64,000 nt of DNA from a virus: IMG/VR virus record IMGVR_UViG_3300047562_003246, positions 121,238-185,237 of that record; one strand, written 5' to 3'. The position numbers and the translations under genes are program-made. A model generated the notes under the pieces. It had not been told where the DNA came from. It did no database searches and worked only from the letters and a program-made list of their open reading frames with translations. Positions 7,991 through 57,970 of the stretch are shown here, in pieces. Each line of letters opens with the position of its first letter. The stretch's first letter is position 1.

Positions 7991-8034
7991 ATGCTGTTTC
8001 AGTAGGTTTTACGTTTAAAAGATTTATGATCTTT

Positions 8035-16376: not shown

Positions 16377-17470
16377 TTAATCCAGGCTTGTACTTAGCGC
16401 TATGTGCTACGTTTGGAATCAAAAACGTCAAGCCAGTTAAGCAGGGAATGCGAGGTAAGTTTAAATTCGGCACGAAGCAAAGAGTGATCAAAGGAAAGCT
16501 CGAAGACTACAGAACCATTTGTAAGATCGGTGGCAAGAATAAATCTTTAGTGGGCGAGGAATTTAGAATCCCTTGCCCTTTTTGTCATGATCATTTGCCG
16601 CGACTTTACATTAATCACTTGTGGGGTACTAAAGACGTTGTCACAGGACACAGATATTTATGGATGGCTAACTGTTACAACGAAAATTGCATGTCTGTAT
16701 TTGAAAACAGAAAACGATTGTACGAAATGGTTTCGGATCGTATGGTCGGCGAGCAAAAATTAAACAAAGGTTTCGACGTAGAAGTGCCAGACGTAGCGAC
16801 TTGGCCCGGTGACGTGTGGAGTCTTTACGATGTGGCGAAAAGAGAACCAAGTCATCCGGCCATAAAATTTTGCTTCGCGCGATTCTGGGACGCGGAGGTT
16901 CTTTCAAAGCAGTACGGTGTACGTGTGCTAATGTCTACGGACTATTGGCACAATGCTTTAAGAGATCGAATTGTTGTGCCTGTTTATGGTGCTGATAAGC
17001 AACTTAAGACATGGTCGGCTAGAAGAGTTCATGAGGAAGAGGGCGGAGCAAAATGGTTGCACTGCCCTTATATCGGAACTGGCAATGCTATTTACGGACT
17101 TAAAGTCGCAAAGACAGCTAAGGTAGGAATCATCGTCGAAGGTCCTGCAGACGTTTGGGCGTGGCAAGGAGCAGGTGCCGGTATTTTCGGTAAGCATTTG
17201 CAAGAGATCAAAGCCAAACGTATAGCTAAGTCTTTCAGCGAATGTACAGCTATCGGTATTTGTCTTGACCCTGAGCAAGACCTTGGTGAAAAGATTAATG
17301 GCAAAGAGCATCACATTGTGTCAGCCAGAAAAACTCTAGAAAAATATACCGACATACCGATAGTTGAAATATGGCTACCGCTTACAAAAGATCCAGATAA
17401 ACTGGATCACGACATATTGCAATATCATCTAGAACGTAGTGCTGACGAACAAGAAATAAAACTATGTTAG
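16373..17470 (+). CDS. DNA primase (Zn finger + TOPRIM)
   Basis: CPFCHD...C..C zinc finger, RIVVPVY, IVEGPADV, CLDPE. Confidence 0.85.
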   Translation: MINPGLYLALCATFGIKNVKPVKQGMRGKFKFGTKQRVIKGKLEDYRTICKIGGKNKSLVGEEFRIPCPFCHDHLPRLYINHLWGTKDVVTGHRYLWMANCYNENCMSVFENRKRLYEMVSDRMVGEQKLNKGFDVEVPDVATWPGDVWSLYDVAKREPSHPAIKFCFARFWDAEVLSKQYGVRVLMSTDYWHNALRDRIVVPVYGADKQLKTWSARRVHEEEGGAKWLHCPYIGTGNAIYGLKVAKTAKVGIIVEGPADVWAWQGAGAGIFGKHLQEIKAKRIAKSFSECTAIGICLDPEQDLGEKINGKEHHIVSARKTLEKYTDIPIVEIWLPLTKDPDKLDHDILQYHLERSADEQEIKLC

Positions 17471-20400
17471 CGACAGAACAAAAAGTTTTCCCTTGCGACA
17501 AGCTTATCTTTCCACTACCACCGGCACTGTTACAAACTGCTAAGAAACTAAAAATAACACCGGAGGAACTTGTTCAAAAAGTTCTTTACGGTCGAGGAAA
17601 GTATTCTTTGCTAGTTGAAGTTGTTGACGGGATTTTTGAATCTAGGCAGTTTGTCCCAGGTCATGTTTGGTCAGCTGAGCCTAAGAACCCTACACCGGGT
17701 CCAAGATATCGCAGCGATGTAATGATTATCGACAAGATGCTCGATAAGGAAGCGCTTGAAAATAGGCGAATATTCAGCGGCGAGTCTGGAATGTTCTTGC
17801 ATAAGCTTTTGAAGCGATCAGGGCATAAAGATCCAGCGAGTTACTACGTAACGACGATGCTGAAAACAACGCAGCCTGATCCGATTGCTACTTACAAAGC
17901 GTATTGGACGCAGTATCAACTGCATTTTGTGTTGCAAGAAATATTACTTGTTCGTCCTAAGTACATGCTGCTAATGGGGGCCGATGTTGTAAAAGGCTTC
18001 TTCAAAAAGAACACCAAGATAGCTGACTTAGAAGGGCGAGTACATAAGTTAAAGTTCAAGCCTCCAGGCGAGAAATCTTTTACGGTTAAAGCAATCGTAA
18101 CGATGCGACCAGAGGCTATGTTGTATTCTCGCAGTGGTTATCAGGAAAAGAAGTTCATCAAGCAGTTGTCGTTGTTCCAGGCACTTGTTGCAGGCAATAA
18201 GCTTGCTAATACAGATAAGCTTCCAGAAATGCCTGGACACAGGATTATCGACAACGAGTACGATTTGCTGCAAGCGATTAAGCAGACCAAAAGAGACTCC
18301 AAGAAGTTCTCGAAAAAATTGATATGTATCGACTGTGAATGGCAAGGTGATCATCCACAGTCACACGGAGCCTATCTGCGTTGTGCTCAGTTTTCAGGTA
18401 AAGCAGGTACAGCTTATTGTGCTGCGTTGACGTTTCCAGGTGGTGCGCCCAGATTTAAAGTTAGACGCGATCCTAAAAAACCTATTGAGCAGGCTCACGC
18501 AGAGAATGATTACACGACTGAAAACGCTTCGCAAGTCGTAGCAAGACATCTGGCGAAAATGCTCAACGGCTTTCGTATGTGTGGTCACCAGATAAAAGCT
18601 GACTTGGAGTGGCTGGAGGCTTATGGATTCGAACAACCTAATGTTTATGAATTTCCAGAAAAACCAGAACAGTGCAAGGAATCAGGTCCGTTTGATACTT
18701 TGCTTGCAGCACATGCTTACGATGAGCAAGCGGATCTAGGTTTACGTGATCAGTTAGCCGTACATTTACCTCAGATACCAAATTACGACGCACACTTGGA
18801 CGCGGGTATCAAGGAGTTCATAGCCAATAGCAGCAAGTATTCAAAGAAAGGAGATTTAAACGGTTACGGAGAGCTACCTGACGAAGTACTTTATCCGTAC
18901 GCATTGTTCGACGCTGACGCTGGTTTACAACTAGCGTTGTTTTATTTAGACAGACTTGACAGAGACCAGAACGGATTATCTTGCTGGCCTGGATATTTCA
19001 GTAGCATCAGAGCGTTTCCTATAGCGCACGAAATTACCAAAGTCGGCATGCTGTTCGATAAAGATCAGGCGGATAAGCTGACCTTCGCTTTTATGCGTAA
19101 ACGTCAGGAGCTGCTATATCAACTGTACCAGCGAACTAACTGGTTCACGCTTAACATGGATTCGCCTTTTCATGTTCGCGAATTACTCTTTGGAGCGAAG
19201 TACAACGGCAGTAAAGACAAGAAAAGGATTAGACCACCTAAAGCACTGTCTTTGCTAGCTGAACCTGTATTAAGTGCAGGCAAGTATCAAAAAGATTGGG
19301 AAGAGATTCGGGCAAAAGGACTCGAATACAAAACGAACGTATCTGCAGGCGCAAAGGTTATCGGACTGATGACGCTTAATGCAGAGCATACCGAAGTAAG
19401 AAGGAGGGATATCGACGGAACTTTTGTATCAGCTACGGTTGATGCATCAGCGATACTTAAGAACATTAGAGAATTCAGGGCAGTTCACCAGCAGTTAAAG
19501 GGTCCATTACGACCACCGGTAGAGCCGCCAATGGATAGAGAAGACTGGCCAGAGGACGAAGCTTTTTATGAGAAAGGTATCCCAGGGTCAGTCTGTCTAG
19601 ATAACAGAGTACGTACGAGTATTCTGCAGATTAAGGAAACTGGTAGATGGGCATCTATAAATCCGCCGCTGCAGAATCTAAGCAGTCAGGTTGAGAAGTT
19701 GCTGCAAAAGATATTTGGTAGTGACTATCCTGGTTCAGTTAAGAATGTGTTTGTCGCCGACAAAGATTATTTTTTCATACCTGTCGACTTAAAAGGTGCT
19801 GAACTTCGGATGTGTGCCGTGCAGAGTTTAGACCCTGCATTTATTACTGCTACCGAAAGAATTTCGTTACCTGAAGACCATCCAGACTTTTTGGATATAC
19901 ACGGGGAGATCGCAGTCGAAGCGTTTAATCTGCCGTGTGCACCAACGAAGCATGCTATCGAAGAGTACGGCAGAGATGATCTGAGAACAGGAGCGAAGAC
20001 AGTTATTTTCGGTAAGTTCTATGGTCAGTCGATCGCAGCAGCAGTTATCGCTGTGCGTATGCGTGGAACCAATGCGACCATGGAGCAGCTGCAAAGGATC
20101 TCAGATACGATCGACGAAAAGTATCCAGGACTGGACTCTTTGTTCGATAAGTGTAGGAAGCGAGTCGAAAAGGGCTATCTGGTTACATGGAACGGTAGAA
20201 TCAGACACTTCCCTAAAACGAATGACGAGCAGAAGTTTCGAGCGATGCAGCGAGAAGCTTTAAACGCTCCGATTCAGGGCGGTGTTGCTGACTTTGTCGG
20301 CCTATTGTGCCATGAAGCGTTTCAGTATAGAAAAGAGACCGGCGCGGATTTCAAAGTCGTACTGCAAAAGCACGACGAGTTGATTTTCATGGTCCATAAA

Positions 20401-20604
20401 AGCTGGCTGAAACGGATTTGGCACGAAGCCATTCCTCACTGGTTTAACAAGCTTTTCTTCTGGCCTGCAGATCTAGAGGGTAGAAGAATTAAGGGACAAC
20501 CAGATTTCAAGTTTTACTATGATCGCGAATTGATGAAAGTGTGGGGCAAACATTTACCAAAAGCAGAACAGGAGGAACTACTAGGTAAAGGCTTCAACCA
20601 ATAA
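17464..20604 (+). CDS. polA: Family A DNA polymerase with N-terminal UDG-like domain
   Basis: Exo ICIDCEW / HQIKADL / YALFDA; motif A VDLKGAELR, motif B RTGAKTVIFGKFYG, motif C QKHDELIF. Confidence 0.92.
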   Translation: MLATEQKVFPCDKLIFPLPPALLQTAKKLKITPEELVQKVLYGRGKYSLLVEVVDGIFESRQFVPGHVWSAEPKNPTPGPRYRSDVMIIDKMLDKEALENRRIFSGESGMFLHKLLKRSGHKDPASYYVTTMLKTTQPDPIATYKAYWTQYQLHFVLQEILLVRPKYMLLMGADVVKGFFKKNTKIADLEGRVHKLKFKPPGEKSFTVKAIVTMRPEAMLYSRSGYQEKKFIKQLSLFQALVAGNKLANTDKLPEMPGHRIIDNEYDLLQAIKQTKRDSKKFSKKLICIDCEWQGDHPQSHGAYLRCAQFSGKAGTAYCAALTFPGGAPRFKVRRDPKKPIEQAHAENDYTTENASQVVARHLAKMLNGFRMCGHQIKADLEWLEAYGFEQPNVYEFPEKPEQCKESGPFDTLLAAHAYDEQADLGLRDQLAVHLPQIPNYDAHLDAGIKEFIANSSKYSKKGDLNGYGELPDEVLYPYALFDADAGLQLALFYLDRLDRDQNGLSCWPGYFSSIRAFPIAHEITKVGMLFDKDQADKLTFAFMRKRQELLYQLYQRTNWFTLNMDSPFHVRELLFGAKYNGSKDKKRIRPPKALSLLAEPVLSAGKYQKDWEEIRAKGLEYKTNVSAGAKVIGLMTLNAEHTEVRRRDIDGTFVSATVDASAILKNIREFRAVHQQLKGPLRPPVEPPMDREDWPEDEAFYEKGIPGSVCLDNRVRTSILQIKETGRWASINPPLQNLSSQVEKLLQKIFGSDYPGSVKNVFVADKDYFFIPVDLKGAELRMCAVQSLDPAFITATERISLPEDHPDFLDIHGEIAVEAFNLPCAPTKHAIEEYGRDDLRTGAKTVIFGKFYGQSIAAAVIAVRMRGTNATMEQLQRISDTIDEKYPGLDSLFDKCRKRVEKGYLVTWNGRIRHFPKTNDEQKFRAMQREALNAPIQGGVADFVGLLCHEAFQYRKETGADFKVVLQKHDELIFMVHKSWLKRIWHEAIPHWFNKLFFWPADLEGRRIKGQPDFKFYYDRELMKVWGKHLPKAEQEELLGKGFNQ

Positions 20605-48772: not shown

Positions 48773-48801
48773 TTTAGCTAGTCAATAAACAGATGTACAA
48801 T

Positions 48802-48835
48802 GAAACGGCTGCTATTTGGCAGTCGTTTTTTTTTT
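48802..48835 (+). terminator. Intrinsic terminator
   Basis: GAAACGGCTGC / GCAGTCGTTT + T run. Confidence 0.8.
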
Positions 48836-48855
48836 CTATGTAGCAAAGTAATCAA

Positions 48856-51800
48856 ATGTCACAAGAAGATATTACTCAGCAATCACCTGTACAACCTGCC
48901 GTGACTTTTCGTGACGTTACTGATCCTGTACAGACCCGAGAAGCTTTGTATGGTGGTGTGTTAAAAGCTTTGCAAGAATTACCACCAGCAGAATCTAAAA
49001 CTCACCAACTGACTCTTGGTAACGTTCGTTATATGGAAGAAGATAATGATGACGAAGACCAGCAAGAGTTGGCGATGGATACTCGGACGACGCTGGGTAG
49101 AAGAATCAAAGGCACTTGGAATCTAATCAACAAGTCAACGGGTCAAGTTGTTGATAGTAAAGAGCAAGTGTTAGGCGTAGTGCCTAGAGTCACTGATAAT
49201 GGCTCGTTCATCTTTAACGGTTCACGCTATGCGTTTGGCCTACAGCAGCGAATTAACCCAGGTTCCTATGCGAGAGTCAAAGCTAACGGCGAGCTAGAAG
49301 CGCTGGTCAACGTTGCTCGGTCCACAGGCGCAAGACACAGGTATCTGTTAGACCCAGAGACTGAACAAATTTCGTTCAATGTTCAGAACAGCAAGATTCC
49401 AGTAGCGGATGTTTTAGAGATACTCGGAGCTACCCAGGAAGACGCCGCAGCAGCTTGGGGTCCAGAGCTTGCGGAGACTAATTGGAAAAAGCGAGACCCA
49501 AAAGCACTTAACAAGTTGTACGAAAAACTTGTTAATAAATCTGGAGGAGACTTAGACGATACGCAAAAAGCTGAAGCAGTTCGTGCGGCATTTGCTCGTA
49601 TGAAAACAGATCGACTGGTTAATCAAAGAACTATCGGTATTGACACTGACGCAGTCGACAAGACAACAGTACTAGCTAGTACAAAGCGTATTCTAGATTT
49701 GCTGCGAGGGCAGGTCGAGGCAGATGATAGAGATCATGCCGCGTTCCAGACTTATTACAGCCCAGAAGATATTTTGGCTGAAAGGCTAAAACTTGACGCA
49801 GGTAAGATTCGTAGAAATTTGTTGTACAAGGCACAGAGATCAAACTCTTTGTCGTCATTACCAACAAGACCGCTGGATGCTCAGTTTCAATCAGCAGTGT
49901 TTGATTCCGGCATTGGGCAGCTTATGGATGCACCTAATCCGCTTGATATTATTGACCGCATGAGTCGTATGACTGTTTACGGCGACGGTGGTATTGGTAG
50001 TCAAGACTCAACGCCGGATAGTACAAGATTCGTTAATCACTCTTACACAGGCATCATGGACGGACTGCGAACAGTGGAAAGCAGTCGTGTAGGCGCAGAT
50101 ACGTTTATTGCTTCTGGAGCTAAGAAAGGCAGCGATGGACAGCTGTACTTTGACGCAATCGACGCCAAGACACAAAAGCCTGTGACGGTATCGGCGTCTA
50201 ACATGTTTGGTAAGACTGTAACGTTGTCGAAGAAGCCAGACCTGGGCAAGTATTACATTGTGCAGAAAGACGGCAAGCTTGATTACGCACTGCCAGAAGA
50301 AATTGATTATTTCTTACCAGATGTTGAAAAGACATACAATCATCTAAGCAATCTTGTTCCAGGCAAGTCATTGATGGTGCCTAACCGTGTAGCGATGGCT
50401 ACTCGAATGTCTGCTCAGGCAGTTGAGTTAGCTAATAAAGAAGCACCACTTTTTCAGAATGCAGTACCGGGGACAAATGGTCAAGTCAGTTTTGAAGATG
50501 TTTATGGCGACAGGCTAGGCGTTAAAAGAGCCCCGCAGGTTCCAGGAACTGTTATTTCGGTTTCAGATAAAGAGATCGAGTATCTAACAGTCGACGGAAC
50601 CAAAGGCAAAGTCAAGCTTTATTCGGACGCTACATTGGGTCGTAAAAGCCGAATGCACAATACGCCAACGGTCAAGGTAGGTGATAAGTTCGAGCCTGGG
50701 CAGATATTAGCCACTAGTAACTTTACCGATAACAACGGCACTGTAGCTATCGGCACAAACTTGCGTGTAGCTGATATGACTTTCCCTGACACATACGAAG
50801 ACGCGTACGTTGTCAGTGAGAGTGCTGCAAAAAACAAACTTGCAAGTGTTCAGTTATATCGAACTAGACTTGAGTCAAACGCTACACAGGCCAGAGACAA
50901 AAAATCATTTGTGTCTGTGTTTGCAGGTAAATTCAAGCCTGATCAACTAGAGAAGCTTGATGATGACGGCATTGTCAAAGTCGGTCAGACAGTCGAGCAC
51001 GGCGATCCTCTTGTCTTAGCAATGGAGCGTAGGCAAGGTGTAGGTCGAGTGCATAAGAAGGGAGGTGCGTCTTTTAAAGATAGTACTCTTGTACATGACC
51101 ACGAAGATCCAGGTACGGTCGTTGGTGTTTTCAAAGACAAGCAAGGGAATACCGTTGTTAAGACTCGGGTGATTAGTCCTTTGAAAGAAGGCGATAAGAT
51201 TACCATGCGTAACGGCCTTAAAGGCACCGTGGTTGTTAAGCCTGACTCGGAGATGCCGCGAGATAAAGAAGGTAATGTGTTTGACGCTGTCATTCCTAGA
51301 CTCGGGGTCATCTCACGAAAGAATCCGGTGGTCAAGCATGAACTTGCACTCAGTAAGATTGCGGCTATGCGAGGTCAGCCTTATAAGATTCCTGACTTCG
51401 GCGAAATCGAAGACATGAATGAGTTCACCCGAGGTGAACTTAAAAAGTATGGCATTAGCGACAAAGAGACAGTCGTCGATCCGTTTACAGGACAAGACGT
51501 TAAAGGCGTGGTAACTGGCTATGCATTCTTTAATAAGCTCCATCACTTCTCAGAAGCCAAGGCACAGGGTCGCAGCACCGGAAGATATACCGCCGACGCA
51601 ATGCCTGCAAAAGGTGGTGATGATTTGGGCAAGAGTAAGCGTATCGGACTACTTGCTCAGCACGCATTACTAGCCGGTGGTGGCCACGAATTTATTCGGG
51701 GTACAGGACTTGTTCGTGGACAAGCTAATAGCGAGTTCTGGCAAGCATTCATGCGAGGCGATGATCCACCTACGCCAAAGGTCCCTGAACGATACAAGAA

Positions 51801-53271
51801 GTTTATGGAGCTACTTAAGGTCGCAGGTATTAATCCGCTTAGGCAAGGCACCAAGACAACGCTGACACCTATGACAGATGACGAGATTGATAGATCAGCA
51901 GGTAACCGTGAGATACAGAACGCTGAGACGCTAGATCTTTACAAAGATCAATCGCCTATCAAAGGTGGATTATTTGATCCAACTATTTTTGGTATGGGCG
52001 ACAGACCTGCCAAGATGTCTTTATCTGTAAAGCTACCCAACCCAGCTTACGAGGAGCCACTGCGCAGGATCCTACAGCTCAAACAAAAAGAGTACTCGGA
52101 TCTGATTGCAGGTAAGCATCAATTAGGCAATCACGGTACTGGTACAAAAGCTATCGAAAGTTTCTTGAGTAAATTTGATATTGATCAAGAAATTGAAAAA
52201 GCTCGTACAGAAATTCGTGGCACTAAAAAGCTAGCTCGGGATGCTGCGGTAAGGCGGTTGGGATTCTTGCGAGCGATGAATAATCTCGAAGTTAACCCAA
52301 GCGATCTGATGCGAGAAAAGATTTTGGTGCTGCCGCCTAACCTGCGACCAGTTTCAGTTATCGGTCAAGGTAAGAAACAAGTGCCAATCGTCAATGATTT
52401 GAACTATCTATACAGGGAAGTCTTTGAGGCGAACAAAGTTTACAAAGACTTAGCATCTCAGCTTGGAGATGATAACGCAGGTGACGAAAGGTTGATGTTG
52501 TACGAGGCAACGAAAGCGCTCAGTGGTTACGGCGAATCGACTGACAAAGAACTACGTAGTCGTAACGTAAAAGGTGCTTTGCGTACACTTCTGCCAGGAG
52601 GACCTAAAGCTAGCTACATGCAACAAAAGCTCATAGGTAACACTGCTGACGTAGCGGGTCGTGGTGTTGTGATACCTAATCACAAACTTGGCATGGACGA
52701 GGTGGGTATTCCTAAAACAATGGCCTGGGATATTTTCTCTAACCATGTCGTACGAGAACTTGTTCGCGGCGGTATGCCTATTTTGCAGGCCAGAGAATCC
52801 GTTGTTAATAAATCGGATAAAGCCTATAAAGCTTTGCAGTCCGTTCTAGAGAAAGTACCTGTCATGGTCAGTAGAGACCCTGCACTGCACCAATACAACA
52901 CGATTGGGCAGTATGTGAAACTAGTTGATGGTAATGCGATTCAGTCGAATCCGCTAATCAACAAAGGACTTAATCTTGATCACGACGGCGACACTATGTC
53001 AGTACACGTACCGATTACAAAAGGTGAAATTGATAACCTGAAAAAGCGATTGATGCCGAGCAAAATGCTTATATCTCCATCTGATATGGAGTCAGTAGTT
53101 TACGCGCCAAACCAAGACTTTACGCTTGGTGTTGCACTAGCTTCGCTCAAACGTAGTAATGTGAAAAGTTCAAAAGTGTTTATGACGTACGCCGATGCTG
53201 AAAGAGCAGCGAAGCGTGGCGAAATTTCCTGGCACGATCCTGTGAGAATATTGGAGAAAGATCAAACATGA
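48856..53271 (+). CDS. Single-chain beta-beta' fused multisubunit-type RNA polymerase
   Basis: Beta motifs FIFNGSRY, GDKITMRNGLKG, KLHH...GRSTGRY; beta' motifs GGLFDPTIFG, VLPPNLRP, DLNYLYREV, KLIGNTADVAGRGVV, SRDPALH, catalytic NLDHDGD. Confidence 0.92.
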   Translation: MSQEDITQQSPVQPAVTFRDVTDPVQTREALYGGVLKALQELPPAESKTHQLTLGNVRYMEEDNDDEDQQELAMDTRTTLGRRIKGTWNLINKSTGQVVDSKEQVLGVVPRVTDNGSFIFNGSRYAFGLQQRINPGSYARVKANGELEALVNVARSTGARHRYLLDPETEQISFNVQNSKIPVADVLEILGATQEDAAAAWGPELAETNWKKRDPKALNKLYEKLVNKSGGDLDDTQKAEAVRAAFARMKTDRLVNQRTIGIDTDAVDKTTVLASTKRILDLLRGQVEADDRDHAAFQTYYSPEDILAERLKLDAGKIRRNLLYKAQRSNSLSSLPTRPLDAQFQSAVFDSGIGQLMDAPNPLDIIDRMSRMTVYGDGGIGSQDSTPDSTRFVNHSYTGIMDGLRTVESSRVGADTFIASGAKKGSDGQLYFDAIDAKTQKPVTVSASNMFGKTVTLSKKPDLGKYYIVQKDGKLDYALPEEIDYFLPDVEKTYNHLSNLVPGKSLMVPNRVAMATRMSAQAVELANKEAPLFQNAVPGTNGQVSFEDVYGDRLGVKRAPQVPGTVISVSDKEIEYLTVDGTKGKVKLYSDATLGRKSRMHNTPTVKVGDKFEPGQILATSNFTDNNGTVAIGTNLRVADMTFPDTYEDAYVVSESAAKNKLASVQLYRTRLESNATQARDKKSFVSVFAGKFKPDQLEKLDDDGIVKVGQTVEHGDPLVLAMERRQGVGRVHKKGGASFKDSTLVHDHEDPGTVVGVFKDKQGNTVVKTRVISPLKEGDKITMRNGLKGTVVVKPDSEMPRDKEGNVFDAVIPRLGVISRKNPVVKHELALSKIAAMRGQPYKIPDFGEIEDMNEFTRGELKKYGISDKETVVDPFTGQDVKGVVTGYAFFNKLHHFSEAKAQGRSTGRYTADAMPAKGGDDLGKSKRIGLLAQHALLAGGGHEFIRGTGLVRGQANSEFWQAFMRGDDPPTPKVPERYKKFMELLKVAGINPLRQGTKTTLTPMTDDEIDRSAGNREIQNAETLDLYKDQSPIKGGLFDPTIFGMGDRPAKMSLSVKLPNPAYEEPLRRILQLKQKEYSDLIAGKHQLGNHGTGTKAIESFLSKFDIDQEIEKARTEIRGTKKLARDAAVRRLGFLRAMNNLEVNPSDLMREKILVLPPNLRPVSVIGQGKKQVPIVNDLNYLYREVFEANKVYKDLASQLGDDNAGDERLMLYEATKALSGYGESTDKELRSRNVKGALRTLLPGGPKASYMQQKLIGNTADVAGRGVVIPNHKLGMDEVGIPKTMAWDIFSNHVVRELVRGGMPILQARESVVNKSDKAYKALQSVLEKVPVMVSRDPALHQYNTIGQYVKLVDGNAIQSNPLINKGLNLDHDGDTMSVHVPITKGEIDNLKKRLMPSKMLISPSDMESVVYAPNQDFTLGVALASLKRSNVKSSKVFMTYADAERAAKRGEISWHDPVRILEKDQT
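52062..52075 (-). repeat. 14-bp motif copy 9
   Basis: GCGCAGGATCCTAC, read as LRRILQ inside RNAP. Confidence 0.97.
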
Positions 53272-53999
53272 AGTATTCTTTACTATCGCCCGAAAGAAAT
53301 TTCGAGCATCATTTAGATTTAGGCGATGACAAAGACAGCGTTGTCGTAGTAGGTGATTTTGGTAGCGGTAAAACGCTTGTTGCTTCTACGTTGTTTATTA
53401 CAGCATCAGGAGAACCAAAAACACCAAAACAAACATTGCGTGGAAAGTTTCCAGTCGCAGTGTGGCTTGGGGAAGGAGCGACTTCTGAGCTTGTGTATAA
53501 CGACAACGAAAAAACAGAGGTTGTTTATTATCCGTACGATATGGATAATGTTCCAAATTTCATGACGTACACATCTACGAAACAAATACCAACGGCGTGC
53601 GCATTAGCCACGGGACATCTCGTATATGCATCAAACTTGGGTACGCTGCTTTTACAGATGAAGTCAGAGCATTATGCTAACTTCGTAGGCTTCATGAGTA
53701 ACTATGTCCCAGGCATGCGAATTAACCCAGCAGAAGTAAACGCCTCGTTAGCTTACATAAACAAGTTGTACCCGCCCGTAGCCTCTACGATAGGTAAGCT
53801 ATTCTCTATTTATCTGGTTGTGTCATCAGCTCATTTAGCAATTCTAGACGTAACTAACCCAGGTATCAGCGACCTACAATGGGCTTGTTTTCATGAAGGA
53901 CTGACTTTATTGGCCAAGCAAAGAAGTATCAAGCTGATTACTTTCAATCAAAAACACCGAAGCGAAAATGCTCTTTACTCACGAATGTGTTTTTTGTAA
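53268..53999 (+). CDS. P-loop-containing hypothetical protein
   Basis: VVGDFGSGKT Walker A. Confidence 0.55.
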   Translation: MKYSLLSPERNFEHHLDLGDDKDSVVVVGDFGSGKTLVASTLFITASGEPKTPKQTLRGKFPVAVWLGEGATSELVYNDNEKTEVVYYPYDMDNVPNFMTYTSTKQIPTACALATGHLVYASNLGTLLLQMKSEHYANFVGFMSNYVPGMRINPAEVNASLAYINKLYPPVASTIGKLFSIYLVVSSAHLAILDVTNPGISDLQWACFHEGLTLLAKQRSIKLITFNQKHRSENALYSRMCFL

Positions 54000-54028
54000 A
54001 CTGTTACAGTCGTATTGATATTCCACCG

Positions 54029-54053
54029 GCCAAGCACATGCTTGGCTTTTTTT
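54029..54053 (+). terminator. Intrinsic terminator
   Basis: GCCAAGC-ACAT-GCTTGGC + T run. Confidence 0.8.
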
Positions 54054-54067
54054 ATTGAGTTAGCCAT

Positions 54068-54850
54068 ATGCCAAAGCGTCGTACAGAGAAAAAACCGGAA
54101 CAAGCAACTAAACCAACTCCGCAAGTAGAGTACTTGATAACAAATGATGGAACGATCATGCTGAACTTCGGTGAAGTGTCAGAGATGATTCCTCGGACTC
54201 ATCCGCAGTATAGGGTCATCGTCAATATGCTTAAACAAAGGTCGTTTAATTCCATCATCAGGCTGCTGAACTTCAACATTACTACTGAAAGATTAAATGT
54301 CAGCTTACTACGTAAGCAAAATAAAACTTGGTATGTCGGCGACAAAAAGATTGAAGGAGCTGTCGCTTATGACATTGACAGGTTAGTTAATAACGTGCCT
54401 GATGAATTTATTATTTCGGCAGTAAAGTACGAGGAAGCTAAAGAATCAGCAGAAGAAGCTCAGCCGCGTCAAGCCACAGCTAACGCTGTTAGCGCGGAGA
54501 TCGCACATAGGGGTCTCGCTGACTTTTGTAGAAAGTATCGCGCAATGACCGTACAGTACGTTGAGGACGAAGCCCTACAGTGCATCAAAACACTCTGCGT
54601 AGTTGATCTAGGTAACGTGTCGCCTAGTTATAACGGCGAAAAAATAACAGTGCTGTTTATTACAAAGAGCAGCCGACAAGTTTTTGCTTGCTATGTAGAA
54701 GGGCAGGTTAAAACTATCAAAGATTTTTACTTGGAAGCAGCACGTTCTCCGTTTAATGAAAAGCTTAAAGCTGTATTGTCACAGCTGGCAAACAGCAATA
54801 CTGAGCAAAACGCTGCTAATAAGAAAGCTCGCAGAATTTCTATTGATTAA
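54068..54850 (+). CDS. Hypothetical protein, possibly rIIB-like N-terminus
   Basis: IPRTHPQYRVI segment and adjacency to rIIA-like gene. Confidence 0.35.
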   Translation: MPKRRTEKKPEQATKPTPQVEYLITNDGTIMLNFGEVSEMIPRTHPQYRVIVNMLKQRSFNSIIRLLNFNITTERLNVSLLRKQNKTWYVGDKKIEGAVAYDIDRLVNNVPDEFIISAVKYEEAKESAEEAQPRQATANAVSAEIAHRGLADFCRKYRAMTVQYVEDEALQCIKTLCVVDLGNVSPSYNGEKITVLFITKSSRQVFACYVEGQVKTIKDFYLEAARSPFNEKLKAVLSQLANSNTEQNAANKKARRISID

Positions 54851-54895: not shown

Positions 54896-57800
54896 ATGAA
54901 ACCAGTAACTAAGAACCGACAAATATCCGGTAACACGCAAATTGAAAGTAATTACCAACGAGTACAACTCGCAGTAACGAGTACTCTGTTTGACATTCTT
55001 TCAGAAAAGTTATATCAAAACCCACTTCGTTCCGCGCCGACCGAAGCAATTACAAACGCTGCAGATGCCATCGGTCGAAGACTTGCTCGTATGTCGAAAA
55101 AAGAAAAAGAGACGATGCAAGCAGAGGACAGAAAATTCAAGATAGTGATTACTTGTCCTACTGTGAGTTACCCGTACTTTGTTGTGCGAGACGAAGGCAC
55201 AGGCATAGACAACCACGACGACGTTGTGTCTAAGTTTTTCGGATTCAACCAGTCTGACAAAACTTCAGAATCAACCAGCACAGGCTCGATGGGGCTTGGG
55301 GCAAAATCAGTTTATGCAATTGCTGAGCAGTTCTCCTTTACGCTGTACGACGGAAAAACAAAAAGAGTTTATCAAGGTTTGAAAGATGAGCAAGGTTTTC
55401 CGCTTTGTCCTTCGAAAGAGCCACCGCGAATTGCATGTGACGAGCCCAGAGGTGCAGAACTGAAGGTGCCAATAACTGATATCGATTCGAAATTAGTTTC
55501 GACTTGGCAGCATAATATCTTAAGTATTTGTCGTAACATCGGACACGACAAGAATCCGTTTGATGGTGCAATCGAGATAATCGTAGACAAAGGTCAGGCT
55601 TCAGAAAAAACGATAAAATTACCGCCCAAATGGGCAAATTGGACATTAGACCAGCCGAATACTTTTGCGTACAGCGGTAGGTTGCTGGGCAAACACGTAC
55701 GAAGAAAAAAGAATTCAGAAGCGTCGGGCGTAGTCAGGTTCTACGACGACATGGATGAAGAAACAGAAAGTTATGATAACGACAGGGATAACCTACTATT
55801 TTCCACGGAAAACTGTGCGTTGATTCATGTCAGTAATAACACACACAATGCAAGACAGGTATTAAAAGAATGTCAAGAAGGCGTTCTTCATTACGCGAAC
55901 ATTATTTATAAATTTAACGCGACAAGTTTCAAAGAAAAGTTACCTTGGTTGCAGTACTATAAACTGCATATATTTCTTGGTAATACCAGAGCAGATGGTA
56001 CACAGCATCCAATCGTATTCAACCCTAGTCGAGAGTCACTAGTCGCAGGCAATACTGATACCTATTTGTGTGACCTGGCAGCAGAACAAATGTTGCCTGT
56101 GCTAGACAAATTGGCAGAAGACATTTTGACTGCTTTTGAAGGTAAAAATCTTTACGAACAGCTCAAACTCAATGAAACGATTAAAGATAGACTTCAGCGC
56201 TTCTCTTTACCTGAATTAGCTACCCAAGTTGTCGAGGTAATAAAGCAAGAGCAGCACGATGTAATGTCAGAAAGCGATCTCAAGTCTTCGGACGATAAAG
56301 AGCAAGAGGTGATGCGATCAGTAAAACTAACACCATGGGATTCTGACTTAATAAAGAATAAACTCAATATTCCTGAAGACTACATTGACGTGTCGTTTTG
56401 TAACTTAGCGGCACTTAACAGCGTATTATCAACGCAGGGAGACTGCGATCAGGCAGCGCACATAGCTAATAGTTACATCTGCACAGATACTCGCATCGAT
56501 AAACTAGCTACGCTAAGCAGCAGGAAGTCTGATGTTATGTACAGTTCAGAGAGTATTACTTTACCGAACGCACTTGCGAGGATAAAAGATCATCCTGTGA
56601 TCGCTGTTTCGCATAAGTCTATCAAGGCTAGTATCGGTGCGCGTTACTTATGGAACGCGATGCCTATAGCTGATGACAAAAGGAAAAATCTTTTAAACCA
56701 ATCTAAGCAGATTATGCTGTTATGTAAAAAGAAAGACGATGTAGGTGCTGTCGCCAGAGAGCTTGCAAGTATTCTCGCACCGCAAGGTTATCGTGTCGTT
56801 GATGTAGTGTCGCATTACAAAGACGATTTCGGTTTTACTGCGGAGCAAAAACAAAGAACTTCGATTCGAACTATCGAAGGACGATTACGCGAGTTTGCTT
56901 ATAAGTTCAATTACAATGTAACTTCAGGTTATCGAGACTCACCCAGAGAATATTGGGATAAGCTGGAAACCCCAGAAGCTAGTCAAGAAATATTCAAGCG
57001 TCTAAACGACAAAAAGAACCATAAAGTGGTTCATCTGTTGTTTGACGGGTTCAGTGTAGACGTATCGGATATTTATCAGCAGGAAGACAAGACTTTACTG
57101 TCGCCGATTTACGTTAGAAGCATGGTAGAGATGCTGACGCATGACTATAGAGAAAGGTATCAAAAGACTTTGACAGTCGTCGGTGTTGCCAGAAGAGACA
57201 AAAAGATTTTGGAAGCGATACCAAGTTCGTTTATCTCGTTAGCCTGTAGATTTATCAAAGCTCACCGCAAGCAAATACGAGACACTGCTATTGTTGAGCA
57301 GTTTATGCGCCGCCACGACGATTTCGACTTTGCTAACAAGTTTCATCCAGCAAAGTATATGTTTCATTCCTACGAGCGATTTAAAAAAGGATCTGTTATT
57401 CGTGAAATCGTCAGAGAAGTTCAAAAGGCAATGCCGTCTTTGATTACTGACGAATCGTTTCTAGACAGCGTGAAGAAAAATAAACTGCAAGAAATTAAAA
57501 CAGCGTTAAGTAACGGAGCGAGTATTCGAGACGTGTCTAGATATTTTGTAAGTAGCATTGTTTCGCAGTGCAAAGGACAGATAGCTGGATTAGTAGAGAG
57601 TAAGTTCGAATCACCACAAACGCATGAAGCGGTTCGTGAATTGGTTAAGCTGCTTTACGAGGAGTCCAAGGCTAAGCAGTCGAAACTAGGCATAGACAAA
57701 GAAATGTCTGTAGCTAATTTGTTTTATGGCGATCATCACACTTTGTTGCCAGACTATGTACCCTCTAGGGCGACAAAGTTGCGAGCAGCTTATCCGCTGG

Positions 57801-57970
57801 TGGATCATTACGTTAATTCGAGTAGTGCAAACACGATTAGTGTTTCTTACGTCGAGAGACGGTTGTTTCGAATGATATGGGTTCAAGATCTACTTGGCGA
57901 TAAACAGCTAGCTGTCGATACTGCACTTGCAACACATTACAATAATATTGACTCTTCGGAAGAAGACTAA
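54896..57970 (+). CDS. rIIA-like protein with GHKL (Hsp90-like) ATPase domain
   Basis: LFDILSEKLYQN..EAITNAADA, VRDEGTGI, SDK..STGSMGLGAKSVYA. Confidence 0.75.
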   Translation: MKPVTKNRQISGNTQIESNYQRVQLAVTSTLFDILSEKLYQNPLRSAPTEAITNAADAIGRRLARMSKKEKETMQAEDRKFKIVITCPTVSYPYFVVRDEGTGIDNHDDVVSKFFGFNQSDKTSESTSTGSMGLGAKSVYAIAEQFSFTLYDGKTKRVYQGLKDEQGFPLCPSKEPPRIACDEPRGAELKVPITDIDSKLVSTWQHNILSICRNIGHDKNPFDGAIEIIVDKGQASEKTIKLPPKWANWTLDQPNTFAYSGRLLGKHVRRKKNSEASGVVRFYDDMDEETESYDNDRDNLLFSTENCALIHVSNNTHNARQVLKECQEGVLHYANIIYKFNATSFKEKLPWLQYYKLHIFLGNTRADGTQHPIVFNPSRESLVAGNTDTYLCDLAAEQMLPVLDKLAEDILTAFEGKNLYEQLKLNETIKDRLQRFSLPELATQVVEVIKQEQHDVMSESDLKSSDDKEQEVMRSVKLTPWDSDLIKNKLNIPEDYIDVSFCNLAALNSVLSTQGDCDQAAHIANSYICTDTRIDKLATLSSRKSDVMYSSESITLPNALARIKDHPVIAVSHKSIKASIGARYLWNAMPIADDKRKNLLNQSKQIMLLCKKKDDVGAVARELASILAPQGYRVVDVVSHYKDDFGFTAEQKQRTSIRTIEGRLREFAYKFNYNVTSGYRDSPREYWDKLETPEASQEIFKRLNDKKNHKVVHLLFDGFSVDVSDIYQQEDKTLLSPIYVRSMVEMLTHDYRERYQKTLTVVGVARRDKKILEAIPSSFISLACRFIKAHRKQIRDTAIVEQFMRRHDDFDFANKFHPAKYMFHSYERFKKGSVIREIVREVQKAMPSLITDESFLDSVKKNKLQEIKTALSNGASIRDVSRYFVSSIVSQCKGQIAGLVESKFESPQTHEAVRELVKLLYEESKAKQSKLGIDKEMSVANLFYGDHHTLLPDYVPSRATKLRAAYPLVDHYVNSSSANTISVSYVERRLFRMIWVQDLLGDKQLAVDTALATHYNNIDSSEED

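What the first reader, a model, noticed from the sequence alone, without database searches (positions are those of the whole stretch)
48856..53271. Minimal single-polypeptide beta-beta' RNA polymerase with variant catalytic loop and truncated beta'
Seen: 1471 aa. The beta C-terminus (…FMELLKVAGIN) runs directly into the beta' N-terminus (LTPMTDDEI…) near 51830-51870. The catalytic loop is NLDHDGD (52972-92) instead of NADFDGD, and the zinc-binding Cys residues appear absent (GGLFDPTIFG). Only about 90 aa follow the catalytic loop, so the bridge helix and trigger loop of cellular beta' are not evident. Known: rpoBC fusions exist in Helicobacter and Wolbachia, and phiKZ-type RNAPs are split. Inference: the missing part is a separate gene, or the enzyme is unusually reduced; no sigma factor was recognised in the window.
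Basis: partly seen in the sequence, partly recalled or inferred. Interest (0 to 1): 0.7.

Follow-up and report, generated by a model that had tools for sequence, protein, structure and literature searches.

The report
Fused-and-split phage RNA polymerase gene
This gene encodes the large chain of a phage's own bacterial-type RNA polymerase, with all of beta joined to the front half of beta-prime. The "missing" back half is a separate gene elsewhere in the same 185-kb phage genome, a layout shared by hundreds of uncultured phages but barely described in print.

Summary
The ORF is 1471 aa. Beta ends at about aa 999 and beta-prime starts at about aa 1000. The catalytic loop NLDHDGD lies at 52972-52992, 92 aa follow it, the zinc-binding domain is deleted, and the protein has no cysteine.

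The enzyme is not a minimal or truncated polymerase. The window is the last 64 kb of a 185,237-bp IMG/VR phage record. That record encodes one stand-alone beta-prime C-half (641 aa, contig 61025-62950) with the bridge helix and trigger loop. On the rpoC profile the two chains abut (positions 142-535 and 551-1066), and they also abut on unsplit relatives.

The record also encodes a sigma-70-family factor outside the window. I detected no alpha or omega subunit and no second polymerase.

Cultured relatives with the same layout are Salmonella phage Arash (gp206, gp216, sigma gp10, all detected in virions) and Vibrio phages D69, D148 and D181. Hundreds of metagenomic clusters share it. A rooted tree places the split form inside a clade of fully fused beta/beta-prime proteins, so the split is a secondary gene fission.

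Two things are unusual here. The two genes lie at least 70 kb apart, against 1-5 kb in 78 of 80 relatives. All three components are cysteine-free.

Earlier notes of this scan report the same layout on other DNA. I found no paper that describes it.

The parts
48856..53271 (+). ORF of 1471 aa: complete beta fused in frame to the N-terminal half of beta-prime. It is the large chain of the phage RNA polymerase.
   Evidence: PDB phmmer aligns aa 12-998 to bacterial beta and aa 1066-1465 to E. coli beta-prime 161-550. The protein has zero Cys.
48856..51852 (+). Beta module (aa 1-999). It lacks the E. coli lineage-specific insertions SI1 and SI2. It keeps the Rif-pocket region (in divergent form), the flap with its tip, the active-site residues (query aa: K781, K789, H897, E648, D649) and the C-terminal clamp.
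51835..51864 (+). Beta/beta-prime junction (about aa 994-1003). The join is direct, with no long linker.
   Evidence: The alignment places the end of beta at query aa 999. VIA-align maps aa 1003 to E. coli beta-prime residue 22.
51853..53268 (+). Beta-prime N-half (aa 1000-1471). Zipper, lid, clamp helices, rudder and the catalytic double-psi beta-barrel are present. It ends at about E. coli beta-prime 556-572.
   Evidence: TIGR02386 positions 142-535. AlphaFold model pLDDT 85.6. VIA-align Z 23 to E. coli beta-prime 22-556. The best Foldseek hit is the cyanobacterial gamma subunit 8gzh_D. Region map.
51961..52002 (+). Site of the deleted zinc-binding domain (aa 1036-1049, including GGLFDPTIFG).
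   Evidence: 14 of 48 zinc-binding-domain positions align. The columns for C70, C72, C85 and C88 are gaps in all 68 family members.
52972..52992 (+). Catalytic loop NLDHDGD (aa 1373-1379). The three Mg-binding Asp and the Gly are intact.
   Evidence: D460, D462, G463 and D464 are invariant in 68 of 68 family members, while N458, A459 and F461 vary.
48802..48839 (+). Strong intrinsic terminator (12-bp stem plus T10), 17 nt upstream of the start codon.
   Evidence: the sequence was read.
53268..53999 (+). 243-aa ORF with a Walker-A-like GDFGSGKT motif. Its start overlaps the polymerase stop codon (ATGA), and a terminator follows at 54028-54054. It is probably co-transcribed. Function unknown, and it is not conserved next to the polymerase gene in relatives.
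   Evidence: (weak P-loop family hints only).

Best explanation
The gene encodes the larger of the two chains of the phage's own bacterial-type (two-barrel) RNA polymerase core.

Chain 1 (1471 aa, this ORF) is a complete beta subunit joined directly to beta-prime residues equivalent to E. coli 1 to about 560. That stretch includes the sigma-docking clamp helices, lid, rudder and the Mg-binding D-x-D-G-D loop.

Chain 2 (641 aa, contig 61025-62950, outside the window) is the rest of beta-prime, with the bridge helix, trigger loop and C-terminal clamp/jaw parts.

Together they rebuild a full beta/beta-prime core. No alpha or omega subunit was detected, and I infer that the covalent beta/beta-prime link replaces the alpha-dimer assembly platform. 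Both zinc sites are lost.

A phage-encoded sigma-70-family protein (contig about 99.7-100.5 kb) most likely directs the core to phage promoters.

The layout arose by fission of an ancestral fully fused beta/beta-prime gene just after the catalytic barrel. In this phage the two halves were then moved far apart.

By analogy with Salmonella phage Arash, the holoenzyme is probably packed into the virion and delivered with the DNA, which would make phage transcription independent of the host polymerase.

Shown: identity, domain content, the clean split, conservation of catalytic residues, family distribution and tree topology. Inferred: assembly without alpha, use of the sigma factor, virion packaging and rifampicin insensitivity.
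For: Identity and extent:
- Pfam, NCBIfam and PDB matches.
- The rpoC profile is covered at 142-535 by chain 1 and at 551-1066 by chain 2.
- The end of chain 1 and residue 5 of chain 2 abut at one position of unsplit relatives: P0076 at 1456, P0095 at 1454, P0103 at 1459.
- Models reach pLDDT 85.6 and 87.0. VIA-align gives Z 23 for aa 1003-1471 against E. coli beta-prime 22-556. TMq is 0.70 for chain 2 against Thermus beta-prime.
- Bridge helix and trigger loop align in chain 2. The trigger-loop His337 is invariant in 60 homologues.

Catalytic residues:
- Beta K1065, K1073, D814, R1106 and beta-prime D460, D462, G463, D464, R425 are invariant in 68 sequences.

Other subunits:
- There is only one polymerase gene set in the record.
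- No alpha or omega match appeared, while all 14 control genomes matched.
- The sigma-like ORF scores 32 bits on Pfam Sigma70_r3 (cut-off 25.3), E 4e-10 on TIGR02980, and 26% identity to Arash gp10.

Family:
- More than 284 clusters at 90% identity match the fusion protein and more than 933 match the C-half.
- 1262 clusters at 50% identity match at E <= 1e-30. Of the best 150, 103 end 75-125 aa after D-x-D-G-D.

Tree:
- The 44 split-type sequences are monophyletic (support 0.935).
- They nest among full fusions (0.996 with P0121), rooted on Salmonella and Staphylococcus.

Virion lead:
- In Arash, gp206, gp216 and sigma gp10 are among the proteins detected in purified particles, and gp206 has the most spectra (PMC10585845).
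- Chain 1, chain 2 and the sigma-like ORF all have 0 Cys against a genome mean of 1.31%. The chance of 0 Cys in 1471 aa is 4e-9.
Against: No biochemistry exists for any member of the family.

The authors of the Arash paper themselves note that abundant late proteins could contaminate virion preparations.

The record is rated 88% complete, so an alpha- or omega-like gene or a second polymerase could lie in the missing part.

The sigma-like ORF is below the curated cut-offs for sigma regions 2 and 4.

In this phage the polymerase gene does not sit in the head-gene block as it does in relatives. It is flanked by terminators next to rIIA/rIIB-like genes. That weakens the argument from gene context for packaging.

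The tree uses FastTree support, only two bacterial outgroups and only the 66 best intein-free hits.
Confidence: 0.85

Rival explanations
1. The polymerase is made only inside the infected cell, for middle or late genes, and is not packaged. Host RNA polymerase transcribes the early genes.
For: In this genome the gene lies between terminators beside rIIA/rIIB-like and DNA-metabolism genes, not in the head block. The Arash authors allow that abundant late proteins may contaminate virion preparations. Nothing in the sequence proves packaging.
Against: In Arash, gp206 gave the most spectra of all virion proteins, and gp216 and sigma gp10 were also detected. In 78 of 80 relatives both genes sit together in one block, 1-5 kb apart on the same strand, which earlier scan notes place among head genes. 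The sigma-like gene lies next to large ORFs without polymerase homology that an earlier scan note reads as baseplate genes. The Cys-free state is specific to these proteins and a few other large ORFs.
Confidence: 0.35
2. The ORF is a broken copy of a fully fused beta/beta-prime gene, caused by a premature stop, a frameshift or an assembly error. It would then be a pseudogene or an artefact.
For: Unsplit relatives of about 2000-2160 aa exist.
Against: The same end point occurs in 44 aligned relatives, and in 103 of the best 150 cluster representatives. The downstream ORF has no polymerase homology. A complete, well-folding C-half exists as one gene elsewhere and starts exactly where this ORF stops. 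An identical protein is on record in the protein collection (P0005).
Confidence: 0.02
3. This is a truly minimal polymerase that works without a bridge helix and trigger loop.
For: Neither element is present within this ORF.
Against: The genome encodes exactly one beta-prime C-half with both elements. It is conserved in more than 900 clusters, and in relatives it is nearly always encoded beside the fusion gene.
Confidence: 0.02
4. The two chains are rejoined after translation by a split intein (protein trans-splicing), giving one full beta/beta-prime polypeptide.
For: Inteins are very common in this family. Several sit directly after D-F-D-G-D.
Against: The C-terminus of chain 1 and residue 5 of chain 2 abut on the unsplit relatives. 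That leaves no room for an N-intein of about 100 aa or a C-intein of about 35 aa. There is no Cys anywhere in either chain, and no intein domain was found in either.
Confidence: 0.01

Closest known systems
RNA polymerase genes of Salmonella phage Arash (gp206 of 1525 aa, gp216 of 606 aa, sigma gp10; OQ632216, PMC10585845) and of Vibrio phages D69, D148 and D181
   Same: The chain layout is the same: beta plus the beta-prime N-half in one ORF, a separate C-half, and a sigma-like factor. Identity is 28% over 94-98% of the fusion protein and 23-26% over the C-half. These sequences fall in the same split-type clade of the tree.
   Different: In Arash and D69 the two genes are 0.6-6.5 kb apart, here at least 70 kb. 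The Arash and D69 C-halves keep 4 Cys; this one has none, and both zinc sites are lost. I found no homologue of Arash gp196 (second sigma) or gp217 (helicase) here at E 1e-3. The Arash paper names the proteins beta and beta-prime, does not mention the fusion, and reports no enzymology.
mReC, the multisubunit-RNAP-encoding Caudovirales (Weinheimer and Aylward 2020, PMC7481178)
   Same: These are phage-encoded RNA polymerases that align readily with bacterial beta and beta-prime, on large uncultured tailed-phage contigs.
   Different: Every mReC entry on the part of their table that I read lists beta and beta-prime as two different genes, of about 900-1520 and 900-1390 aa. Their screen required NADxDGD, which this loop (NLDHDGD) fails. 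The paper mentions fusion only for crAss-like phages.
Natural RpoBC fusions of Helicobacter and Wolbachia (NCBIfam NF007172 and NF011417)
   Same: The C-terminus of beta is joined in frame to the N-terminus of beta-prime.
   Different: Those are single chains of about 2840-2890 aa with a whole beta-prime, acting with alpha and omega in cells. Here the scores are 257 and 178 bits against cut-offs of 5372 and 4632, and the chain stops at beta-prime residue about 560.
Split beta-prime of cyanobacteria and plastids (gamma/RpoC1 plus RpoC2)
   Same: Beta-prime is cut after the catalytic barrel. The cyanobacterial gamma subunit is the best Foldseek match of the N-half model.
   Different: The cut here lies about 50-65 residues earlier: chain 1 ends at position 552 of the 619-position gamma profile, and chain 2 starts before the RpoC2 start. 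There, beta is a separate chain, and alpha and omega are present.
phiKZ/AR9-type jumbo-phage RNA polymerases (reviewed in PMC7598289 and PMC7824862)
   Same: They are phage-encoded, lack alpha and omega, have beta-prime cut after the catalytic barrel, and one enzyme of the pair is packaged in the virion.
   Different: There, beta is also split into 2-3 chains, nothing is fused, there are two paralogous enzymes, and no sigma homologue exists (gp68/gp226 serve instead). Their sequences are far more divergent. None of them appears among the 60 best PDB sequence matches listed, which are all cellular enzymes.

Membership tests
Cellular-type two-barrel RNA polymerase, beta/beta-prime core | Beta barrel with the two active-site lysines and its partner residues (E. 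coli K1065, K1073, H1237, E813/D814) | tested here: met
   K781, K789, H897, E648 and D649 align to these residues. K1065, K1073 and D814 are invariant in 68 family members. Pfam Rpb2_6 matches at E 4e-38.
Cellular-type two-barrel RNA polymerase, beta/beta-prime core | Beta-prime barrel with three Mg-binding Asp in D-x-D-G-D | tested here: met
   NLDHDGD at aa 1373-1379. D, D, G and D are invariant in 68 of 68 members.
Cellular-type two-barrel RNA polymerase, beta/beta-prime core | Bridge helix and trigger loop | tested here: met
   They are not in this ORF but in the separate 641-aa chain. That chain aligns to M. tuberculosis beta-prime 663-1188, the model has a helix at 185-219, and the trigger-loop His337 is invariant.
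Cellular-type two-barrel RNA polymerase, beta/beta-prime core | Alpha dimer and omega as assembly subunits | tested here: not met
   PF01000, PF01193 and PF01192 have no match in the record at E <= 1, while all 14 control genomes match. The record is 88% complete.
Arash-like fused-and-split phage RNA polymerase | One ORF with whole beta plus beta-prime N-half, ending about 90 aa after D-x-D-G-D | tested here: met
   92 aa follow the loop. The end point is shared with 44 aligned relatives and with 103 of the 150 best cluster representatives.
Arash-like fused-and-split phage RNA polymerase | Separate beta-prime C-half gene of about 600-650 aa in the same genome | tested here: met
   Contig 61025-62950, 641 aa, 25% identical to Arash gp216.
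Arash-like fused-and-split phage RNA polymerase | Phage-encoded sigma-70-family factor | tested here: met
   Sigma70_r3 scores above the cut-off, TIGR02980 gives E 4e-10, and there is a match to Arash gp10. Regions 2 and 4 are below the cut-offs.
Arash-like fused-and-split phage RNA polymerase | Presence of the chains in the virion | not testable with these tools
   Known only for Arash, by mass spectrometry. The phage here is uncultured.
Helicobacter/Wolbachia-type RpoBC | A single chain containing the whole of beta and the whole of beta-prime | tested here: not met
   The chain ends at E. coli beta-prime residue about 556-572. NF007172 scores 257 bits against a cut-off of 5372.
phiKZ/AR9-type split phage RNA polymerase | Beta split into two or more chains, no sigma homologue, two paralogous enzyme sets | tested here: not met
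   Beta is whole and fused. There is one gene set only, and a sigma-like gene is present.
mReC RNA polymerases | Separate beta and beta-prime genes, and an NADxDGD motif (the authors' screen) | tested here: not met
   The protein is fused and its loop is NLDHDGD. A deeper relationship of the two families was not tested.

The most novel reading that the evidence does not exclude
The phage carries a complete sigma-dependent, bacterial-type RNA polymerase holoenzyme inside its particle and delivers it with the DNA.

On this reading several family traits are adaptations that let a machine of about 240 kDa be stored in the capsid and passed into the cell, then reassemble there without cofactors or an assembly platform. 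These traits are the loss of every cysteine and of both zinc sites, the replacement of alpha and omega by a covalent beta/beta-prime link, and the cut of the 2100-aa chain into two pieces.

It would be the first virion-delivered multisubunit polymerase that still uses a sigma factor.
Probability: 0.35. Interest if true: 0.8.

Novelty: new variant of a known kind. Interest (0 to 1): 0.55.

Why it matters
Phage-encoded multisubunit RNA polymerases are so far known in depth only from phiKZ/AR9-type jumbo phages, which are highly diverged, fragmented and sigma-less. The single-chain enzymes of crAss-like phages, YonO and P23-45 are the other studied cases.

This family is different in several ways:
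- It is still close enough to bacterial beta and beta-prime to align end to end.
- It keeps the sigma-docking elements and comes with a sigma-70-family factor.
- It has no detected alpha or omega, no zinc-binding domain and, in this branch, no cysteine at all.

It therefore offers a natural minimal bacterial-type core of two chains for studying what alpha, omega and the zinc sites are needed for.

The tree gives a clear example of gene fusion followed by fission at the same inter-domain hot spot that was cut independently in cyanobacteria, plastids and phiKZ-like phages.

The family is large, with hundreds to more than a thousand sequence clusters, and it has cultured members (Arash, Vibrio phages). 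The questions are therefore directly testable.

For annotation, genes of this kind are currently labelled 'beta subunit' or 'hypothetical', which hides the layout.

Tried and rejected
The C-half alignment worked.
- tblastn with Arash gp196 (second sigma), gp217 (helicase) and gp205 found nothing in this genome at E 1e-3.
- Pfam Sigma70_r2 has no match in the record.
- PHROGs gave no useful name for the other large Cys-free ORFs, apart from an acetyltransferase-like stretch in one. I could not show that the Cys-free proteins are virion cargo.
- Literature searches for a fused phage beta/beta-prime polymerase found nothing that describes it. One query was malformed. Subscription journals are not covered.
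- A split-intein rejoining, a broken gene and a truly minimal enzyme were considered and rejected (see the rival explanations).
- No sigma-70-type promoter was found between the upstream terminator and the start codon.
- A recurrent intergenic word TTAGCTA(T) also occurs at window 48774. It sits between the upstream stop codon and the terminator, so I could not call it a promoter.
- The downstream P-loop ORF and the upstream ORFs are not conserved beside the polymerase gene in 80 relatives.

Full report
**Observation.** The ORF at 48856-53271 (+) is real and gives 1471 aa. The frame is open for only four codons before the ATG.
- FMELLKVAGIN is aa 983-993.
- LTPMTDDEI is aa 1003-1011.
- GGLFDPTIFG is aa 1037-1046.
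- NLDHDGD is aa 1373-1379 (nt 52972-52992), with 92 residues after it.

The protein contains no cysteine at all. Pfam finds Rpb2 domain 6 (E 4e-38) and Rpb1 domains 1 and 2. A sequence search of the PDB aligns aa 12-998 with nearly full-length bacterial beta, and aa 1066-1465 with E. coli beta-prime 161-550.

**Where the window lies and what else the genome holds.** The window is bases 121238-185237 of a 185,237-bp IMG/VR virus record rated 88% complete.
- *Beta-prime C-half.* A search of that record with Rpb1 domain 5 finds a single hit in a 641-aa ORF at contig 61025-62950, outside the window.
- *No second polymerase.* Rpb1 domain 2 and Rpb2 domain 6 each occur only in the ORF under study.
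- *No alpha or omega.* Their models give no match, although all 14 control genomes do.
- *A sigma-like gene.* One ORF at contig about 99.7-100.5 kb matches Sigma70 region 3 above the Pfam cut-off, matches the SigB/F/G subfamily model at E 4e-10, and matches Arash gp10 at 26% identity. Regions 2 and 4 are below their cut-offs.

**The beta-prime is split, not truncated.**
- On the NCBIfam rpoC model of 1147 positions, the ORF covers positions 142-535 and the 641-aa protein covers 551-1066.
- Against unsplit relatives, the last residue of the ORF and residue 5 of the 641-aa protein meet at the same residue: 1456 of P0076, 1454 of P0095 and 1459 of P0103.
- The 641-aa chain aligns with M. tuberculosis beta-prime 663-1188, including the bridge helix and the trigger loop.
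- Its AlphaFold model (pLDDT 87) superposes on Thermus beta-prime over its whole length, with TMq about 0.70. The trigger-loop histidine (H337) is invariant in 60 homologues.
- The model of aa 980-1471 (pLDDT 85.6) aligns structurally with E. coli beta-prime 22-556 at Z 23. Its best Foldseek hit is the cyanobacterial gamma subunit, the natural N-half of a split beta-prime.

The 92 residues after the catalytic loop are therefore ordinary beta-prime sequence, not a hidden bridge helix or trigger loop.

**What is kept and what is lost.** An alignment with Salmonella beta and beta-prime shows the following.
- The E. coli-specific insertions SI1 and SI2 are absent.
- The zipper, lid, clamp helices, rudder and flap tip are present.
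- Only the zinc-binding domain is deleted. The four zinc-ligand columns are gaps in all 68 family members aligned.
- The second zinc site, in the C-half, is also gone here. Its Cys positions are replaced, and the chain has 0 Cys.
- The catalytic residues are invariant across the family: beta K1065, K1073, D814, R1106 and beta-prime D460, D462, G463, D464, R425.
- The 'variant' loop is one of many. The N, A and F positions vary freely around an invariant D-x-D-G-D.
- The rifampicin pocket is divergent: H526R, S531T, L533Y, I572D in E. coli numbering. I infer that the enzyme is probably insensitive to the drug, which gives a simple experimental handle.

**Relatives.** In the phage collection, four records match over at least 94% of the protein at 28-29% identity: Salmonella phage Arash and Vibrio phages D69, D148 and D181.
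- Arash encodes gp206 (1525 aa, annotated 'beta'), gp216 (606 aa) and two sigma-factor genes. Both gp216 and D69 gene 0264 match the C-half found here.
- The Arash paper reports gp206 as the protein with the most spectra in purified virions, with gp216 and sigma gp10 also detected. It does not mention the fusion (PMC10585845).
- In metagenomes the family is large. More than 284 clusters at 90% identity match the fusion protein and more than 933 match the C-half. Both searches were capped at 8000 candidates.
- An exhaustive search of 50%-identity clusters with the beta-prime N-half gives 1262 clusters at E <= 1e-30. Of the best 150, 103 end 75-125 aa after D-x-D-G-D.
- Many members carry inteins, several inserted directly after the catalytic loop.

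**Evolution.** More distant relatives (about 30% identity, 2000-2160 aa) carry the whole of beta-prime in the same chain.
- I built a FastTree of 66 intein-free sequences on 1423 shared columns, rooted with Salmonella and Staphylococcus beta plus beta-prime.
- The 44 split-type sequences form one clade (support 0.935).
- That clade nests among the full fusions (0.996 together with P0121).
- The simplest reading is that beta and beta-prime first fused, and the chain was later cut just after the catalytic barrel.
- The cut lies in the same inter-domain region as the cuts in cyanobacteria, plastids and phiKZ-type phages (PMC7598289), but about 50-65 residues earlier than the cyanobacterial one. 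It is therefore an independent event at a permissive site.

**What is unusual in this genome.**
- In 78 of 80 related IMG/VR loci, the fusion gene lies 1-5 kb upstream of the C-half on the same strand. An Ala/Pro/Met-rich ORF of about 240 aa and an ORF of about 75 aa separate them.
- Here a similar Ala/Pro/Met/Gln-rich ORF still precedes the C-half. The fusion gene, however, lies 107 kb further along the contig, or at least 70 kb away if the genome is circularly permuted.
- The fusion gene and a translationally coupled 243-aa P-loop-like ORF sit between two strong intrinsic terminators, next to rIIA/rIIB-like genes.
- The genome's mean Cys content is 1.31%, so 0 Cys in 1471 aa has a chance of about 4e-9. 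The C-half and the sigma-like ORF are also Cys-free.
- Of the near homologues, 93 of 95 C-halves and 30 of 42 fusion proteins have no Cys. The Arash and D69 C-halves keep four.

**Comparison with what is published.**
- The mReC polymerases of Weinheimer and Aylward are the nearest described group. Every entry on the part of their table that I read lists beta and beta-prime as separate genes. Their screen also required NADxDGD, which this loop fails.
- The phiKZ/AR9 enzymes are fragmented, not fused, and have no sigma homologue.
- The Helicobacter and Wolbachia RpoBC proteins are whole fusions in cells. The models for them score far below cut-off here.
- I found no paper that describes a beta/beta-prime-N fusion with a separate C-half in phages. 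That search does not cover subscription journals.
- Earlier notes of this scan report the same layout in at least six other genomes, and other first-stage notes flag the C-half and the sigma-like gene of this genome. These are unchecked AI notes. They agree with what I tested here, but I do not count them as evidence.

**Verdict.** Of the interpretation, 'separate gene' is right and 'minimal/truncated' is wrong. The gene is a member of a large, essentially undescribed family of two-chain, alpha-less, zinc-domain-less phage RNA polymerases that come with a sigma-like factor. Virion packaging is a reasonable but untested inference from Arash.

Noticed in passing
window 48856-53271; contig 61025-62950 and about 99.7-100.5 kb (outside the window): All three polymerase components have no cysteine, against a genome mean of 1.31%. 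Seven other ORFs of at least 300 aa are also Cys-free, including window 60907-62874 and 62880-63821. PHROGs named none of them usefully.
   Followed up: partly
window 53268-53999: A 243-aa ORF with a Walker-A-like GDFGSGKT motif overlaps the polymerase stop codon (ATGA) and shares its terminator-bounded unit. It is not found beside the polymerase gene in 80 relatives. Function unknown.
   Followed up: partly
window 48774; also contig 34113, 39514, 52037, 120371 (outside the window): The word TTAGCTA(T) recurs in intergenic regions, often directly after a T-run. At 48774 it lies between the upstream stop codon and the terminator before the polymerase gene. It could be a promoter or a processing signal; this is unresolved.
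   Followed up: partly
relatives P0032, P0052, P0059, P0097 and others; Vibrio phages D181 and D148: Inteins are frequent in this family, and several are inserted immediately after the catalytic D-F-D-G-D. In D181 and D148 an annotated homing endonuclease lies under the match to the fusion gene, which there comes in two pieces.
   Followed up: no
window 54068-54850 and 54896-57970: rIIB-like (weak, E 4e-4) and rIIA-like (E 7e-31, N-terminal GHKL ATPase domain) genes lie directly downstream of the polymerase unit.
   Followed up: no
window 17464-20604: A 1046-aa family A DNA polymerase carries an N-terminal uracil-DNA-glycosylase-superfamily domain (Pfam UDG, E 6e-8).
   Followed up: no
loci L018-L097, between the fusion gene and the beta-prime C-half; also L003:85-537: In most relatives a conserved Ala/Pro/Met-rich ORF of about 240 aa and an ORF of about 75 aa sit between the two polymerase genes. 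A similar low-complexity ORF still precedes the C-half in this genome. Function unknown.
   Followed up: partly
best 150 cluster representatives: Split-type fusion proteins show two length modes, about 1400-1500 aa and about 1800-1900 aa. The nature of the extra 360 aa or so (intein or added domain) was not examined.
   Followed up: no
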